Sequence record: MZ501067
Direction: 5' to 3' (one strand)
Length of the DNA: 64,000 nucleotides
DNA from: Escherichia phage FriedrichZschokke
A model generated the notes under the pieces. The model was not told the DNA's origin. It saw only the letters and a list, made by a program, of their open reading frames with translations, and did not search any database. Below are positions 28,130 to 40,939 of this stretch, in pieces. How positions within the stretch are numbered: the stretch's first letter is position 1; every line of letters starts with the position of its first letter. Both the position numbers and the translations under genes were made by a program.

Positions 28130-28342
28130 TCATTTTTGTCCTGTATTTACTTTATGCCGATGCACGGCCTTAACTTTATCAAGGTATTTTTCAAAATTTC
28201 GCAATCTAGTATAGTCTGCCGGAGATTGGTTGAGTGATACTTCTCGACGCAAAGCTGAAATAACATTTCCAACTTCCCTACGAATTTCATCTAATTGAAG
28301 CACAGTAAGATTGCGAAGTTGCTTTTCAGTTAATTGTAGCAT
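28130..28342 (-). CDS. Hypothetical protein (T4 rI.1 position)
   Basis: 70 aa ORF. Confidence 0.45.
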
Positions 28343-28384
28343 ATATACCCCTTTAGTTAGATAAACCTATTTATAACTTTTGCA

Positions 28385-28966
28385 CTAACCGAGCTTTTTA
28401 GTTAATTCATTCCAATGTTTTCTACACAAAGAAACATAAATTTCATCACCAATACAGATTTGATTACCTTCTTTAACTGGTGTTCCATCTTCCATTAATC
28501 GAGCTGTCATAATCGCTTTTTTGCCGCAATGACAAACTGCCTTTAGTTCAATAAGTTTATCTGCAATCGCTAAAAGTTCTTTAGAACCTTCAAACAATTT
28601 TCCAGCGAAATCAGTCCTTAATCCATAAGCCATAACAGGAACATTATATGTATCAACAATTCGGCTCAATTGATGTACTTGTTCAGTTTTTAAAAATTGG
28701 GCTTCATCTACAAATACGCAATGAATATCTTTTTGTGCTTCAGCCCATTTATAGAACTCGAAAATATCCATATCATCTGTAATAATATTCGCTTCCTGTT
28801 TAATTCCAATGCGAGAAACGACTTCGCAGACAGAATCGCGAGTATCAATAGCAGGCTTAAGAACTAATACACTCATTCCACGTTCTTTATAATTATGTGC
28901 AGCAGTCAAAAGAGAAGCAGATTTTCCAGCATTCATTGCTGCATAAGTAAAAATTAAACTCGCCAT
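28385..28966 (-). CDS. tk: Thymidine kinase
   Basis: 193 aa ORF with Walker A AAMNAGKS and C-terminal Cys zinc motif; matches T4 Tk. Confidence 0.93.
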   Translation of the reverse strand: MASLIFTYAAMNAGKSASLLTAAHNYKERGMSVLVLKPAIDTRDSVCEVVSRIGIKQEANIITDDMDIFEFYKWAEAQKDIHCVFVDEAQFLKTEQVHQLSRIVDTYNVPVMAYGLRTDFAGKLFEGSKELLAIADKLIELKAVCHCGKKAIMTARLMEDGTPVKEGNQICIGDEIYVSLCRKHWNELTKKLG

Positions 28967-28975
28967 ATCACCTTC

Positions 28976-29161
28976 TTAAAGCGTATTCACATAAGCTATT
29001 AATTCATTTTCTTTCTTATCAAACCGATCAGCAAATTCTTCCTGCTGTTCGGGAGATAGCGGGCCGTATTCATCATAAAAGGTGTTTGCTTCTATATGCT
29101 CATCTAGAAGTTCATGGATAAGCTCAAACAATTTATCTTTTTGTTCTTTACTCAGACTCAT
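28976..29161 (-). CDS. Hypothetical acidic protein
   Basis: 61 aa ORF. Confidence 0.45.
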   Translation of the reverse strand: MSLSKEQKDKLFELIHELLDEHIEANTFYDEYGPLSPEQQEEFADRFDKKENELIAYVNTL

Positions 29162-29327
29162 ATATTAATTTCCAGGAGTTTTAAAATAATTCGCTTTTGC
29201 TTAAATATTTCCATAGTTAAATGACCAGTATCTTTTTGACCGATTCCAATGGCAAAACCTTTATTAACAGCGAGTTCAATTAAATTATCAAGCTCACGTA
29301 ACACTTCGTATTGTAACTCAAAACTAT

Positions 29328-29540
29328 TCATTTTGGTTTACCTTCTTTAACGAAATCAGGATAAGGATAAAATCCTGAATAAAATCCTTCACCTTTATGA
29401 TTGATGCATCCTTTATTAGAACAATAGCACCAATAATCGAAATCACAAGCCATTTCATCATTACATAAAGCAAAAACAACAGGCCATTTACACTTTTCAC
29501 AATGGGCATTTTTAAGAATACTAGTTTGGCTCATAACCAT
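29328..29540 (-). CDS. Small Cys-rich protein (8 Cys, putative zinc-binding)
   Basis: HCEKCKW...CNDEMACDFDYWCYCSNKGC; start uncertain. Confidence 0.4.
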   Translation of the reverse strand: MVMSQTSILKNAHCEKCKWPVVFALCNDEMACDFDYWCYCSNKGCINHKGEGFYSGFYPYPDFVKEGKPK

Positions 29541-29743
29541 GTAACCTTTAAGCAATATTCTTCTACATGTTGTTTACGACCTTTCTTATCAATAAAGGTA
29601 TATTCAACGAATGTTCCAATGTAGTCTTTATCTACATCATGTGGACTATTAATTGGACATTTAGTACGGCAAATGCGTTCCCATTGACGAATAATTTCCA
29701 CTTTGTTTTTAGGATCAAACGGATGTGGGTAATGTACTTTCAT
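29531..29743 (-). CDS. Hypothetical protein
   Basis: 70 aa ORF. Confidence 0.4.
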   Translation of the reverse strand: MKVHYPHPFDPKNKVEIIRQWERICRTKCPINSPHDVDKDYIGTFVEYTFIDKKGRKQHVEEYCLKVTWL

Positions 29744-30194
29744 AATCCACCACTATTAAATCAATATCAGGAGTAAACATGTCGATTAATTTAGAAACCT
29801 TATCCCAATCGCCGCCAGCAATACCACAACCTATGCGTGGAATGTAAATTACTGGTTTAAACAAAAGGGTTTCTGCCTGTAGATTTAATTCTATCATGCA
29901 GTTTACTAAAGCACCATAATCAAGATTAGGACCTGGTTCGTATTGCGTATACAGGTTATAGCATATACCAAAACCATTAGGTTTATGTTTAAAAACAATA
30001 GACATATCGCCTAATTTATCACGAGAACCGTACTCAGTAGTGGTTTTATCTATTTCTAAAATTTTGGGATAGGCTCTTGCTAATTGACCAGCTACACCTG
30101 AACCCATAGTATGAAAACAATTGCACCCGTGCGCAATAATATTACCTTGAAGAAATAGGGCGACAATATCGCCCTTGATATATTTTACAATCAT
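29715..30194 (-). CDS. Macrodomain-like protein (putative ADP-ribose binding / ADP-ribosyl hydrolase)
   Basis: 159 aa ORF; GDIV...NxxxxxGxGVAGQL and IGCGIAGG motifs resemble the macrodomain diphosphate-binding loops. Confidence 0.45.
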   Translation of the reverse strand: MIVKYIKGDIVALFLQGNIIAHGCNCFHTMGSGVAGQLARAYPKILEIDKTTTEYGSRDKLGDMSIVFKHKPNGFGICYNLYTQYEPGPNLDYGALVNCMIELNLQAETLLFKPVIYIPRIGCGIAGGDWDKVSKLIDMFTPDIDLIVVDYESTLPTSV

Positions 30195-30532
30195 CTAGTA
30201 CTCAATCCTCGATTATAAGAATCTACCAAACGGTCAACCATTGAATGACAAGCGGCTTTATCTTTCTCCTCCGCAACTGAACATTCTAAGGTATTCCACT
30301 TTTTAGCATATCGTTTTAACAATGTATCATTTTTGTATCTGCTTGATTTATCTCTTTCTCCGTCTTTATATGCATATATTAATTTCTGCGCAAATTCAGC
30401 TTGGCATGCTTTATTTTTCCCGCAATAATCCGCTGCAGTACGGTTTACATACTCTCTAATTTCAGTATATGATGTATCTGCTAACGCAGAAAATGAAATT
30501 AATCCTATACATAAAACCAAAATTTTAGTCAT
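30191..30532 (-). CDS. Secreted protein with signal peptide (T4 vs position)
   Basis: 113 aa ORF MTKILVLCIGLISFSALA...; synteny only. Confidence 0.45.
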   Translation of the reverse strand: MTKILVLCIGLISFSALADTSYTEIREYVNRTAADYCGKNKACQAEFAQKLIYAYKDGERDKSSRYKNDTLLKRYAKKWNTLECSVAEEKDKAACHSMVDRLVDSYNRGLSTR

Positions 30533-31070
30533 TTACTATTTCCAAAAGTTTATTATTTTTAAGGTAATTAGCCTTTTCTAGGACTTCAGAAGCATATTTA
30601 GAACCTGCTTTAACATTCCATCCCGAATTATAAGAGGATATTGCTTTTCTTATATCGCCCTTATGTATATTTAACCAATAAGAAAGTTCAATGTACGCCC
30701 AGGAAGCTGAATTGGACCGTTTATTCAACATTCTTTTTATTTCAGCATCGGTCATATTATAACCAAGTTCCTTAACTCTTGCTCGCATAGTAGGCAAATA
30801 ATTTTGGAACATTCCGTAGGCGTGATGCTTTGGTTTAGATTTTAAATTAACTCCGCCAGAGCTTTCTTGCCATAAAATAGCAGCCATTATATGACCTAAT
30901 CCGCTCTTGTGGATATTTTTATGTGTTTTATATTTTCCATCCTTAGAAAATTGTTCCCCGAATTGATACGCGTAACGCATGTTATCGAGTTGGACATTAC
31001 TGAAAGTATGCTCGGAGCTATGTGCCATCATTGAAATGGCCAATAGACCAGCGAGTAGTGCTTTTCTCAT
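30525..31070 (-). CDS. Secreted lytic-transglycosylase-like protein (SLT-like motifs)
   Basis: 181 aa ORF with signal peptide and ES...GMFQ...Y motifs. Confidence 0.5.
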   Translation of the reverse strand: MRKALLAGLLAISMMAHSSEHTFSNVQLDNMRYAYQFGEQFSKDGKYKTHKNIHKSGLGHIMAAILWQESSGGVNLKSKPKHHAYGMFQNYLPTMRARVKELGYNMTDAEIKRMLNKRSNSASWAYIELSYWLNIHKGDIRKAISSYNSGWNVKAGSKYASEVLEKANYLKNNKLLEIVND

Positions 31071-31077
31071 GCTTACC

Positions 31078-31539
31078 TCATTGAGTTTTAATTACTGCTT
31101 TAGAAGCCTTTCCTGGTAAACGACGACTGTTGATAATTGCCATCCTGCATTGAAGTGACGGGTCTTTGAACTTCTCATTAGGCTTACAAACCGTAAATCC
31201 AAGCCAAAGATTTCCATCTGTGATTTCTAAACGTCCAGGACGATATTCAACCCCATCAATAAAATCCTCGTCAATGTCAGGACGCGGAGGCATACTCAGG
31301 AATTCATTAACTTCTAAAACATGGTCTTTTATTTTATGGAATAATTCAAAAACATATGTCTCATCAATCTCCCGTTGAATTGCACGATCAAGAAGATGTT
31401 GAGAATATTTTAGATGAAACGATGAGACTCCTGCTGCTTTTGATGCCTCACGAATCTCATTGTTAATTTGACGAAACTCCGACTCAAAGTGACGACGAAG
31501 CTTATTTCGACGGATAAAAACTTCTGTATTGATAGTCAT
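31078..31539 (-). CDS. regB: Site-specific endoribonuclease RegB
   Basis: 153 aa ORF MTINTEVFIRRNKLRRHFESEF... at the T4 regB position and of the same length. Confidence 0.8.
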   Translation of the reverse strand: MTINTEVFIRRNKLRRHFESEFRQINNEIREASKAAGVSSFHLKYSQHLLDRAIQREIDETYVFELFHKIKDHVLEVNEFLSMPPRPDIDEDFIDGVEYRPGRLEITDGNLWLGFTVCKPNEKFKDPSLQCRMAIINSRRLPGKASKAVIKTQ

Positions 31540-31566
31540 GTTGTTCTCCTCTTAACTGATAGAAAA

Positions 31567-31595
31567 ATTATACCACAGTCAAGAGGAAAAGTAAA
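31567..31595 (-). promoter_or_regulatory. T4-type early promoter upstream of regB
   Basis: Minus strand TTTACT-N17-TATAAT. Confidence 0.5.
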
Positions 31596-31598
31596 CAG

Positions 31599-31877
31599 TT
31601 ATTCTTTAAATCTAATCAATTTATTCATAGACTTTGAAACTTCTGCACGAACCTCATGTAAGTTTTTAAGCTGTTCAAGACGCTGCTCATAGTAAGCAAT
31701 TTCATCTTCTTCGAGACAGTCCTGTGAATCTTCTTTAAGATAGCGTGCATAGTCCTGGAAAGCTTTACGGACTACTTCCTGGAAGTCATCAAGACTTTGA
31801 ATTTTCTTAGGAGCGGCAGATACACGACGAGGGGCAGTATAATACTCATAACCAAACCCTGCACTTAATTGAGCCAT
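31599..31877 (-). CDS. Hypothetical protein (T4 vs.3 position)
   Basis: ORF 31599..31919 trimmed to the internal ATG ([13 protein letters not shown]). Confidence 0.4.
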
Positions 31878-39917: not shown

Positions 39918-39993
39918 TGGTCGAGGCAGTAGGGATCGAACCTACGACCCAGGACTTAGAAGGTCCTTGCTCTTCCTTCTGAGCTATGCCCCG
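39918..39993 (-). tRNA. tRNA-Arg (anticodon TCT), CCA encoded
   Basis: Manually folded cloverleaf: acceptor CGGGGCA/TGCCTCG, anticodon loop CTTCTAA, T-arm GTAGG-TTCGATC-CCTAC. Confidence 0.8.
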
Positions 39994-39997
39994 TAAT

Positions 39998-40073
39998 TGG
40001 GGTGACCGATGGGAGTCGAACCCATGACTACGAGAATCACAATCTCGAGTTCTACCAACTGAACTACGGCCAC
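39998..40073 (-). tRNA. tRNA-His (anticodon GTG), CCA encoded, C73 discriminator
   Basis: Cloverleaf: acceptor GTGGCCG/CGGTCAC, anticodon loop TTGTGAT, T-arm ATGGG-TTCGACT-CCCAT. Confidence 0.75.
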
Positions 40074-40187
40074 ATTAATACCTACTCCAACAATCAAGAT
40101 GTCTTCACACGAAATTAAGAGAAGAGTGATCAGTTCAACCCCTATAATCGCGTCAAGTAGATATTAATGTGACAGTTGTCACAAATT

Positions 40188-40262
40188 TGGCGGACGTGAT
40201 AGGATTCGAACCTATAACCAATCGCTTAACAGGCGATCGCTCTGCCATTGAGCTACACATCC
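40188..40262 (-). tRNA. tRNA-Asn (anticodon GTT), CCA encoded
   Basis: Cloverleaf: acceptor GGATGTG/CACGTCC, anticodon loop CTGTTAA, T-arm ATAGG-TTCGAAT-CCTAT. Confidence 0.75.
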
Positions 40263-40266
40263 AAAT

Positions 40267-40353
40267 TGGTGGGGAGTGGTGGAGTCGAACCACCCGAGTC
40301 GCAATGACAATGGATTTACAGTCCACACCGCTACCTCTACGGGATAACTCCCC
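40267..40353 (-). tRNA. tRNA-Tyr (anticodon GTA), long variable arm, CCA encoded
   Basis: Acceptor GGGGAGT/ACTCCCC, anticodon loop CTGTAAA, variable arm with GTC/GAC stem, T-arm GGTGG-TTCGACT-CCACC. Confidence 0.75.
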
Positions 40354-40366
40354 TTAATTCTTAATT

Positions 40367-40441
40367 TGGTGGCCCTGGGTGGAATTGAACCACCATCTGG
40401 CGATTATGAGTCGCTTGCTTGAACCTTCCAGCTACAGGGCC
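40367..40441 (-). tRNA. tRNA with CAT anticodon (Met, or Ile2 if lysidine-modified), CCA encoded
   Basis: Acceptor GGCCCTG/CAGGGCC, anticodon loop CTCATAA, T-arm GGTGG-TTCAATT-CCACC. Confidence 0.7.
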
Positions 40442-40442
40442 T

Positions 40443-40518
40443 TGGTGCTGATTGACGGAATCGAACCGCCGACCTTCTCATTACAAGTGAGTTGCTCTAC
40501 CTACTGAGCTAAATCAGC
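40443..40518 (-). tRNA. tRNA-Thr (anticodon TGT), CCA encoded
   Basis: Acceptor GCTGATT/AATCAGC, D-arm GCTCAGTAGGTAGAGC, anticodon loop CTTGTAA. Confidence 0.8.
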
Positions 40519-40523
40519 AAAAC

Positions 40524-40613
40524 TGGCGGAGGCGATAGGATTTGAACCTATGAGTCGCCGGAGCGACTGCCGGTTTTCAAGACCGGTGCATTAAACCACT
40601 CTGCCACGCCTCC
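40524..40613 (-). tRNA. tRNA-Ser (anticodon TGA), class II with long variable arm
   Basis: Acceptor GGAGGCG/CGCCTCC, anticodon loop CTTGAAA, long variable arm, T-arm ATAGG-TTCAAAT-CCTAT. Confidence 0.8.
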
Positions 40614-40615
40614 AG

Positions 40616-40689
40616 TCTCCATACAAGGATTTGAACCTTGGACCTCCTGATCCCAAATCAGGCGCTCTACCAAACTGAGCTACACGGAG
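40616..40689 (-). tRNA. tRNA-Pro (anticodon TGG), 3' CCA not encoded
   Basis: Acceptor CTCCGTG/TATGGAG, anticodon loop TTTGGGA, T-arm CAAGG-TTCAAAT-CCTTG. Confidence 0.8.
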
Positions 40690-40699
40690 TAAATTAAAT

Positions 40700-40773
<74 letters not shown>

Positions 40774-40778
40774 AAATT

Positions 40779-40865
40779 TGGTGCGAGAAGTGGGACTCGA
40801 ACCCACAAGGAAATCATTCCGCAGCATTTTAAGTGCTGTGCCTTTACCAATTTGACCATTCTCGC
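40779..40865 (-). tRNA. tRNA-Leu (anticodon TAA), class II, CCA encoded
   Basis: Acceptor GCGAGAA/TTCTCGC, anticodon loop CTTAAAA, long variable arm, T-arm GTGGG-TTCGAGT-CCCAC. Confidence 0.8.
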
Positions 40866-40866
40866 G

Positions 40867-40939
40867 CTGGGAATAAAGGACTCGAACCTTTGCATCCTGG
40901 AATCAAAATCCAGTGCCTTACCAACTTGGCTAATTCCCA
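40867..40939 (-). tRNA. tRNA-Gln (anticodon TTG), 3' CCA not encoded
   Basis: Acceptor TGGGAAT/ATTCCCA, anticodon loop TTTTGAT, T-arm AAAGG-TTCGAGT-CCTTT. Confidence 0.8.

What the first reader, a model, noticed from the sequence alone, without database searches (positions are those of the whole stretch)
29715..30194. Macrodomain-like protein between tk and regB
The 159 aa product carries motifs resembling both macrodomain ligand-binding loops: GDIVALFLQGNIIAHGCNCFHTMGSGVAGQL near the N-terminus and IPRIGCGIAGGDW near the C-terminus. Macrodomains bind or hydrolyse ADP-ribose adducts. T-even phages ADP-ribosylate host proteins (Alt, ModA, ModB), and hosts use ADP-ribosylating defences such as DarT, so a phage macrodomain could be a reversal or counter-defence enzyme. 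Its function is not evident from sequence alone. Adjacent small ORFs include an 8-Cys putative zinc-binding protein (29328..29540).
Basis: inference. Interest (0 to 1): 0.55.

Follow-up and report, generated by a model that had tools for sequence, protein, structure and literature searches.

The report
Phage T4-type anti-DarT macrodomain (Tk.4/AdfM)
This gene is a T4-like phage's copy of tk.4, a macrodomain enzyme recently named AdfM in phage T4.

Summary
The ORF is real: 29715..30194, minus strand, 159 aa. The window is Escherichia phage FriedrichMiescher (Bas39, Tequatrovirus).

- **Identity:** By synteny (tk … tk.3-tk.4-vs-vs.1-regB) it is the ortholog of T4 tk.4.
- **Known function:** A November 2025 preprint showed that tk.4 is the only T4 gene needed to resist DarTG2 and named it adfM. 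The counter-defence idea is therefore supported, but already known.

Two refinements:
- **Active site:** The family has an invariant Gln (Q84) where DarG and TARG1 have their catalytic Lys. That matches Streptomyces SCO6735, a Gln-dependent hydrolase of thymidine-linked ADP-ribose on DNA. It is not DarG-like in the way PhiKZ's separately named AdfM is.
- **Divergent allele:** This copy is only 57% identical to T4 Tk.4, although the flanking DNA is 97-100% identical. About 300 phage records carry this allele.

No biochemistry exists for Tk.4 from T4 or for this allele. Interest is low to moderate.

The parts
29715..30194 (-). tk.4 / adfM allele: 159-aa stand-alone macrodomain of the ALC1-like/TARG1 class. 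Key residues are H22-G23-C24-N25-C26 (first ligand loop), N80-L-Y82-T83-Q84 (Gln at the catalytic-Lys position) and P119-R-I-G-C-G-I-A-G-G-D-W130 (diphosphate loop).
29715..30058 (-). Divergent cassette within tk.4 (about codons 47-159). It is 46-65% nucleotide identity and 46% amino-acid identity to T4, while the flanks are 97-100% identical. This points to allele replacement by recombination.
30059..30194 (-). Conserved 5' part of tk.4 (codons 1-46, 85% amino-acid identity to T4). It carries the HGCNC...MGSGVAG ligand-binding loop.
29531..29743 (-). tk.3 (DUF7202, 70 aa), the downstream neighbour. It overlaps the tk.4 stop by 29 nt. Function unknown; it serves as a synteny marker.
30191..30532 (-). 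vs (valyl-tRNA synthetase modifier), the upstream neighbour, with a 4-nt overlap with the tk.4 start. Synteny marker.
31567..31595 (-). Sigma-70-like promoter match (TTTACT-17-TATAAT with TG) upstream of regB. It is the nearest candidate promoter for the co-directional regB-vs.1-vs-tk.4 gene string. This is a consensus match only.

Best explanation
The ORF is the Tequatrovirus tk.4 gene, now called adfM (anti-DarT factor, macrodomain). It is a stand-alone macrodomain ADP-ribosylglycohydrolase. Most likely mechanism: when a host DarT2 toxin ADP-ribosylates thymidines in single-stranded phage DNA and stalls replication, Tk.4 binds the ADP-ribose through its two glycine-rich loops (HGCNC..MGSGVAG and PRIGCGIAGGDW) and hydrolyses the base-ribose bond, restoring unmodified DNA. 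The chemistry is probably SCO6735-like rather than DarG/TARG1-like: an invariant Gln (Q84) sits where those enzymes have the catalytic Lys, and the TARG1 Asp is absent. Shown: the ORF, the fold, the class, the active-site equivalences, orthology by synteny, and (from the literature, for the T4 allele only) the genetic requirement against DarTG2. Inferred: enzymatic removal of ADP-ribose from DNA by Tk.4, and that this 57%-identical allele does the same.
For: Fold and class:
- Pfam Macro E 6e-8. AF2 model pLDDT 94, pTM 0.88.
- Foldseek top hits are TARG1, Poa1p, BT1257 and DarG, E 1e-9 to 3e-7.

Orthology:
- Same gene order as T4. 57% identity over 155 aa, E 1e-69.

Function of the ortholog:
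- T4 tk.4 was the single DarTG2-specific hit, and its knockout was sensitised (10.1101/2025.11.20.689424).
- T4 lacking adfA and adfN stays DarTG2-resistant (PMC11825919).

Active site:
- Q84 aligns with DarG K80, TARG1 K84 and SCO6735 Q85. N25 aligns with SCO6735 N27 and PhiKZ AdfM N23. The PRIGCG[IL]AGGxW loop is shared with SCO6735 and BT1257.
- H22, N25, N80, Y82 and Q84 are invariant in 119-121 of 121 family members.
- SCO6735 cleaves thymidine-linked ADP-ribose on DNA and rescues cells from DarT; its Q85A mutant is dead (PMC9411070).
- Reversal of thymine- and uracil-linked ADP-ribose is a shared property of TARG1-like macrodomains (PMC13036486).
- PhiKZ AdfM, also acidic (pI 5.05), removes DarT2-made ADP-ribose from DNA in vitro (PMC13309987).
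Against: - No biochemical assay exists for any Tk.4 protein. The T4 evidence is genetic and comes from a preprint.
- This allele is only 57% identical to the tested one (46% over residues 47-155) and has never been tested.
- The protein falls far below the DarG family cut-off (28 bits against 250) and lacks DarG's DarT-binding domain.
- It lacks the SCO6735 lysines K34 and K89 that were implicated in DNA and diphosphate positioning (S32 and G88 here). It is acidic (pI 5.25), whereas SCO6735 is basic (pI 9.5).
- Direct binding and inhibition of DarT2, as seen with inactive SCO6735, is not excluded.
Confidence: 0.8

Rival explanations
1. Tk.4 neutralises DarT2 mainly by binding the toxin (antitoxin mimicry or interaction-inhibition), and hydrolysis is secondary.
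For: Catalytically dead SCO6735 Q85A, DarG K80A and TARG1 K84A all inhibit DarT in vitro, SCO6735 most strongly (PMC9411070). [quoted passage not shown] The deep allelic divergence across most of the gene outside the first ligand loop is what one might expect from a protein-protein arms race.
Against: Every ligand-binding and catalytic-site residue is invariant across 121 family members, including distant bacterial ones, which argues for retained enzymatic activity. There is no DarT-binding C-terminal domain. Bacterial relatives are orphan genes with no DarT among 10 sampled neighbours.
Confidence: 0.1
2. It is a Poa1p-like ADP-ribose-1''-phosphate phosphatase or O-acetyl-ADP-ribose deacetylase acting on small NAD-derived metabolites. 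This is the historical 'phosphatase / A1pp' annotation.
Against: These labels are transferred from domain names and were not tested. The only phenotype known for tk.4 is DarTG2-specific. Nothing in the window or in the papers read here indicates a phage pathway that produces ADP-ribose-1''-phosphate.
Confidence: 0.05
3. It reverses ADP-ribosylation of protein or RNA, either the phage's own Alt/ModA/ModB marks or marks made by RNA-targeting host toxins, with DNA being incidental.
For: SCO6735 and TARG1 also act on protein glutamate-linked ADP-ribose and on uracil-linked ADP-ribose in RNA (PMC9411070 and PMC13036486). T-even phages meet RNA ADP-ribosylating defences such as CmdTAC (PMC11618068).
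Against: CmdT adenine modification is described as irreversible (PMC13036486), and T4, which carries tk.4, is strongly blocked by CmdTAC. Alt and Mod enzymes modify arginine, which TARG1-class macrodomains are not known to cleave (own knowledge). The published screen links tk.4 to DarTG2.
Confidence: 0.05

Closest known systems
T4 Tk.4 = AdfM (anti-DarT factor Macrodomain; bioRxiv 10.1101/2025.11.20.689424)
   Same: Same locus and gene order (tk.3-tk.4-vs), same length class (159 against 155 aa), all 17 family-invariant residues shared, 57% identity, E 1e-69.
   Different: Only 46% identity over residues 47-155, although the flanking DNA is 97-100% identical. The diphosphate loop is PRIGCGIAGGDW here and PRIGAGIGKGNW in T4. 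This allele has a 4-residue C-terminal extension that overlaps tk.3 by 29 nt. It has not been tested.
Streptomyces coelicolor SCO6735 (PDB 5E3B) and Bacteroides BT1257 (2AFC/2FG1), Gln-type ALC1-like macrodomains
   Different: 26-27% identity. The phage protein has NLYTQ rather than NMIGQ. It lacks K34 and K89 and the inserted loop after the Gln. It is acidic (pI 5.25 against 9.5).
DarG antitoxin macrodomain (M. tuberculosis 5M3I, T. aquaticus 5M31)
   Different: The catalytic Lys (FPTK) is replaced by Gln. PRIG replaces PPLG. There is no C-terminal DarT-binding domain. It scores 28 bits against the NCBIfam DarG cut-off of 250.
PhiKZ gp104 'AdfM' (Cell Rep 2026, PMC13309987)
   Same: A phage-encoded stand-alone macrodomain that counters DarTG2. 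It is acidic, has a conserved Asn in the first loop (N23 = N25), and was independently given the same name.
   Different: A separate lineage. PhiKZ gp104 is a true DarG-type protein (FPTK Lys; E 9e-25 to M. tuberculosis DarG; 133-138 bits on DarG models) and shows only marginal pairwise similarity to the window protein (BLASTP E 0.001 over 33 residues).
Human TARG1/OARD1 and yeast Poa1p
   Different: TARG1 uses a K84/D125 dyad, where this protein has Q84/A126. Poa1p is described as a small-molecule phosphatase.

Membership tests
Macro domain superfamily (Pfam PF01661) | Profile match above the curated gathering score | tested here: met
   33.1 bits against a cut-off of 22, E 6.2e-8, covering profile positions 2-117 of 118
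Macro domain superfamily (Pfam PF01661) | Three-layer alpha/beta/alpha macro fold | tested here: met
ALC1-like / TARG1-like macrodomain class (TARG1, DarG, SCO6735, Poa1p) | Closer in structure to class members than to MacroD, PARG or viral macrodomains | tested here: met
Tk.4/AdfM family of T4-like phages | Syntenic position tk.3-tk.4-vs, with significant full-length similarity to T4 Tk.4 | tested here: met
   (57% identity, E 1e-69, no gaps over 155 aa)
Tk.4/AdfM family of T4-like phages | Required for phage growth on a DarTG2-expressing host | not testable with these tools
   Shown only for the T4 allele (10.1101/2025.11.20.689424). Bas39 was not tested in any paper found
SCO6735-type (Gln-dependent) hydrolases of thymidine-linked ADP-ribose on DNA | Gln at the position of the TARG1 K84 / DarG K80 catalytic Lys, and no TARG1 D125 | tested here: met
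   Q84 aligns with Q85, K84 and K80; A126 aligns with D125. Q84 is invariant in 121 of 121 members
SCO6735-type (Gln-dependent) hydrolases of thymidine-linked ADP-ribose on DNA | Electropositive DNA groove with K34 and K89, plus the extra 'mobile loop' element | tested here: not met
   S32 and G88 occupy those positions, the loop after the Gln is 5-6 residues shorter, and pI is 5.25 against 9.5
SCO6735-type (Gln-dependent) hydrolases of thymidine-linked ADP-ribose on DNA | Hydrolysis of thymidine-linked ADP-ribose on DNA in vitro | not testable with these tools
   Needs an enzyme assay
DarG antitoxin (NCBIfam NF048014 / PADLOC DarG) | Score above the equivalog cut-off; macro domain plus a C-terminal DarT-binding domain; adjacent darT | tested here: not met
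   27.8 bits against 250. Only profile positions 2-142 of 338 are matched. The protein is 159 aa, and no darT is annotated among its neighbours in the tk-regB region
DarG antitoxin (NCBIfam NF048014 / PADLOC DarG) | Catalytic lysine in the FPTK motif | tested here: not met
   LYTQ in place of FPTK

The most novel reading that the evidence does not exclude
The two deeply diverged tk.4 alleles circulating in otherwise near-identical Tequatrovirus genomes (T4-type and Bas39-type, 46% identical across the C-terminal three-quarters) may be functionally different products of an arms race. They could be tuned to different DarT2 variants, to different ADP-ribosylated bases (thymine in DNA against uracil in RNA), or to escape a host factor that targets AdfM. 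In that case Tk.4 would be a third, mechanistically distinct solution for reversing base ADP-ribosylation: a T-Q active site, acidic, and lacking the SCO6735 DNA-clamp lysines.
Probability: 0.2. Interest if true: 0.5.

Novelty: already known. Interest (0 to 1): 0.25.

Why it matters
It confirms that a sequence-only reading can recover a real phage counter-defence gene. DarTG2 poisons phage DNA replication by ADP-ribosylating thymidines, and T-even phages carry an eraser for that mark. For specialists the function is no longer news, because the T4 ortholog was named AdfM in 2025.

What this analysis adds:
- The T4-type AdfM belongs to the Gln-type (SCO6735/BT1257-like) branch of the TARG1 class, not the Lys-type DarG branch.
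- It is a different lineage from the PhiKZ protein that carries the same name.
- The gene exists as at least two highly divergent alleles exchanged by recombination inside a hypervariable stretch of small ORFs. Such stretches are the kind of place where further anti-defence genes may lie.

Tried and rejected
- **Membership in DarG proper** was rejected. The protein is far below the family cut-off, has no DarT-binding domain and has no catalytic Lys.
- **Identity with PhiKZ AdfM** was rejected. Pairwise similarity is only marginal, and the two belong to different subfamilies.
- **A DarT partner next to bacterial relatives** was not found. Of 80 genome loci, the ORFs parsed in 76 are mostly about 150-160 aa, and 10 sampled operon-like neighbours gave RNA ligase, a Dda-like helicase, an EEP nuclease, DUF72, LspA, a weak phosphoribosyltransferase match or nothing. 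That is too small a sample to suggest an ancestral pathway.
- **Direct evidence that Bas39 resists DarTG2** was not found. The AdfN preprint says the T-even phages are all DarTG2-resistant, but the published version restricts the statement to T4.
- **Acidity as an argument against a DNA substrate** was weakened. PhiKZ AdfM is equally acidic and works on DNA in vitro.
- **The CmdTAC paper** was searched for a macrodomain antagonist; none is mentioned.
- **A first attempt to read the SCO6735 alignment** with a truncated query showed only the C-terminal loop. This was solved by using BT1257 as the query.
- **The promoter and terminator scan** gave no more promoter-like sites than shuffled sequence, so the transcription unit is only suggested.

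Full report
**Observation.** The window is 100% identical over 28300-31600 to Escherichia phage FriedrichMiescher (Bas39, MZ501066.1; Tequatrovirus, BASEL collection). The ORF at 29715..30194 on the minus strand encodes 159 aa and starts with ATG. The record annotates it as a hypothetical protein. The gene lies between tk (28385..28966; Pfam TK, E 6e-61) and regB (31078..31539; Pfam REGB_T4, E 8e-69). One detail is off: the neighbouring zinc-binding ORF (29328..29540; Pfam Phage_zn_bind, E 3e-29) has 7 Cys and 2 His, not 8 Cys.

**It is a macrodomain.**
- Pfam Macro scores 33.1 bits against a gathering score of 22, E 6.2e-8, over nearly the whole profile.
- PHROG 335, labelled 'phosphatase', matches at E 1.4e-71.
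- By sequence alone the protein matches solved macrodomains: BT1257 (E 1.7e-10), yeast Poa1p (1e-9), SCO6735 (8e-8), the M. tuberculosis DarG macrodomain (2.4e-5) and TARG1 (8e-3). A family profile improves these to between 1.7e-19 and 4e-12.
- An AlphaFold2 model built on a 47-sequence alignment is confident: mean pLDDT 94, pTM 0.88.
- Foldseek against the PDB ranks TARG1, Poa1p, BT1257 and DarG first, with E from 1e-9 to 3e-7.

The protein therefore belongs to the ALC1-like/TARG1-like class, not the MacroD class.

**Which gene it is.** In T4 (NC_000866) the order is tk, tk.1, tk.2, tk.3, tk.4, vs, vs.1, regB. Tk.4 is annotated there as 'phosphatase; contains A1pp phosphatase motif'. The window ORF occupies the tk.4 slot between tk.3 (DUF7202) and vs. 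It aligns with T4 Tk.4 without gaps over 155 residues at 57% identity, E 1e-69.

**What the literature says.**
- A bioRxiv preprint of 20 November 2025 (10.1101/2025.11.20.689424) screened a T4 transposon library on a DarTG2-expressing host. tk.4 was the single significant hit, and a clean knockout sensitised T4 to DarTG2.
- The authors named the gene adfM (anti-DarT factor Macrodomain). By analogy with DarG, they proposed that it removes ADP-ribose from DNA.
- This fits an earlier observation that T4 lacking both adfA and adfN is still DarTG2-resistant (PMC11825919).
- No enzymology has been reported for Tk.4, and none of the papers found tests Bas39 or its allele.

**Refinement 1: the active site is SCO6735-like, not DarG-like.**
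- A profile-profile alignment of the Tk.4 family with DarG macrodomains (probability 98.6%) places the invariant Q84 on the DarG catalytic Lys of the FPTK motif.
- The family profile aligned to TARG1 places Q84 on K84 and A126 on D125.
- I recovered the SCO6735 sequence from a BT1257 query. Its numbering reproduces every residue named in the paper: H24, V25, N27, K34, Q85, K89 and G126.
- A joint alignment gives these motif rows: window NLYTQ, T4 NLYTQ, SCO6735 NMIGQ, BT1257 NMIGQ, TARG1 YLITK, DarG NFPTK, PhiKZ MFPTK.
- SCO6735 has been shown to cleave thymidine-linked ADP-ribose from DNA more efficiently than DarG or TARG1, and to rescue cells from DarT. Its Q85A and Q85E mutants lose all activity. 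The authors propose a water-mediated mechanism that needs no Lys (PMC9411070).
- The window protein also shares H22 (= H24), N25 (= N27, and = N23 of PhiKZ AdfM, whose N23A mutant is impaired) and the PRIGCG[IL]AGGxW loop.
- Across 121 family members, N80, Y82 and Q84 are invariant, and H22 and N25 are present in every sequence that covers them.

There are differences from SCO6735. The DNA and diphosphate-positioning lysines K34 and K89 are S32 and G88 here. The loop after the Gln is shorter. The phage protein is acidic, pI 5.25 against 9.5. Acidity does not rule out a DNA substrate, because PhiKZ AdfM (pI 5.05) removes ADP-ribose from DNA in vitro.

**Refinement 2: two unrelated 'AdfM' proteins.**
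- PhiKZ gp104 was independently named AdfM (Cell Rep 2026, PMC13309987).
- It is a genuine DarG-type macrodomain: E 9e-25 to M. tuberculosis DarG, 133-138 bits on the DarG models, and an FPTK lysine.
- The window protein scores only 28 bits on those models, against a cut-off of 250. It matches only the macro part and has no DarT-binding domain.
- Pairwise similarity between the two is marginal.

They appear to be separate recruitments from the same macro class.

**Refinement 3: a mosaic allele.**
- Compared with T4, the window is 97-100% identical on both sides. tk.3 is 98% identical, and the first 45 or so codons of tk.4 are 80-100% identical.
- From 29700 to 30058 identity drops to 46-65%. 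At the protein level this is 85% identity for residues 1-46 and 46% for residues 47-155, with third codon positions near saturation.
- Both allele types are common. 281 phage records carry the window type at 95% or more, and 221 carry the T4 type at 95% or more. Further classes sit at 76-90%.
- The closest relatives of the window allele outside this type are 76-81% identical. Among the named ones are IME08 and EcWhh-1.
- A second replaced segment lies at 28967-29530. There the T4 tk.1 gene is missing. A Tk.2-like ORF, a 57-aa ORF and the zinc-binding ORF sit in its place.

The gene therefore lies in a recombination-prone stretch of small accessory ORFs.

**Wider family.**
- tblastn finds relatives in about 2,770 phage records from many hosts.
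- Bacterial relatives at 33-44% identity are mostly stand-alone proteins of about 150-160 aa in diverse phyla.
- Ten sampled neighbours included no DarT. This is consistent with orphan 'guardian' macrodomains like SCO6735.

**Mechanism and confidence.** I judge it about 80% likely that this protein protects the phage from DarT2-type ADP-ribosylation of thymidines by hydrolysing the adduct, using a Gln-dependent, Lys-independent active site.
- Shown here: the ORF, the fold, the class, the residue equivalences, the synteny and the allele mosaic.
- Shown in the literature: the genetic requirement for the T4 allele, and the enzymology of SCO6735, DarG, TARG1 and PhiKZ AdfM.
- Inferred: the catalytic activity of Tk.4 itself, and transfer of function to this 57%-identical allele.

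The rivals each have little support:
- toxin binding without catalysis;
- a small-molecule Appr-1''-p phosphatase or O-acetyl-ADP-ribose deacetylase role;
- a protein or RNA de-ADP-ribosylase role.

**Verdict.** Its macro (A1pp) nature was already noted in the T4 genome annotation. Novelty: already known. The residual interest lies in the Gln-type active site, the name collision with PhiKZ AdfM and the deep allelic dimorphism.

Noticed in passing
window 28967-29530: This segment is only 24-46% identical to T4, although the flanks are 97-100% identical. T4 tk.1 is absent. In its place are a Tk.2-like ORF (28976..29161, DUF7438 / phrog_653), a 57-aa ORF with no Pfam match (29158..29331, phrog_3452) and a 70-aa zinc-binding ORF (29328..29540, PF23895, 7 Cys + 2 His). 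All have unknown function, and they sit next to an anti-defence gene.
   Followed up: partly
window 29715-29743: The tk.3 start overlaps the tk.4 stop by 29 nt, against 4 nt in T4. The cause is a 4-residue C-terminal extension of this tk.4 allele.
   Followed up: partly
window 39918-40939 (-): A cluster of 11 tRNA genes: Arg, His, Asn, Tyr, Met(CAU), Thr, Ser, Pro, Gly, Leu, Gln. T4 is usually credited with 8 (own knowledge), so His, Asn and Tyr appear to be extra. The CAU tRNA may be the Ile-type.
   Followed up: no
window 30157-30175: A GC-rich 8-bp hairpin (AGGGCGAT-ATT-GTCGCCCT) lies inside codons 7-13 of tk.4. It was flagged as terminator-like on both strands and sits in the stretch that is 100% conserved with T4. 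It may be chance or an mRNA structure.
   Followed up: no
window 30525-31070 (-): vs.1 (181 aa), annotated as hypothetical, matches the SLT lytic transglycosylase domain (Pfam E 1.4e-5, above the cut-off). Its N-terminus is hydrophobic and looks like a signal sequence (judged by eye).
   Followed up: no
L012:1896-2936 and other loci L004-L083: Bacterial stand-alone relatives of Tk.4 have varied neighbours and no DarT among the 10 sampled. One sits directly upstream of an RNA ligase gene, and one sits next to a Dda-like helicase, which may indicate a prophage.
   Followed up: partly
literature, not sequence: The name 'AdfM' has been given independently to two different macrodomain lineages: T4 Tk.4 (Gln-type) and PhiKZ gp104 (DarG/Lys-type).
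   Followed up: yes
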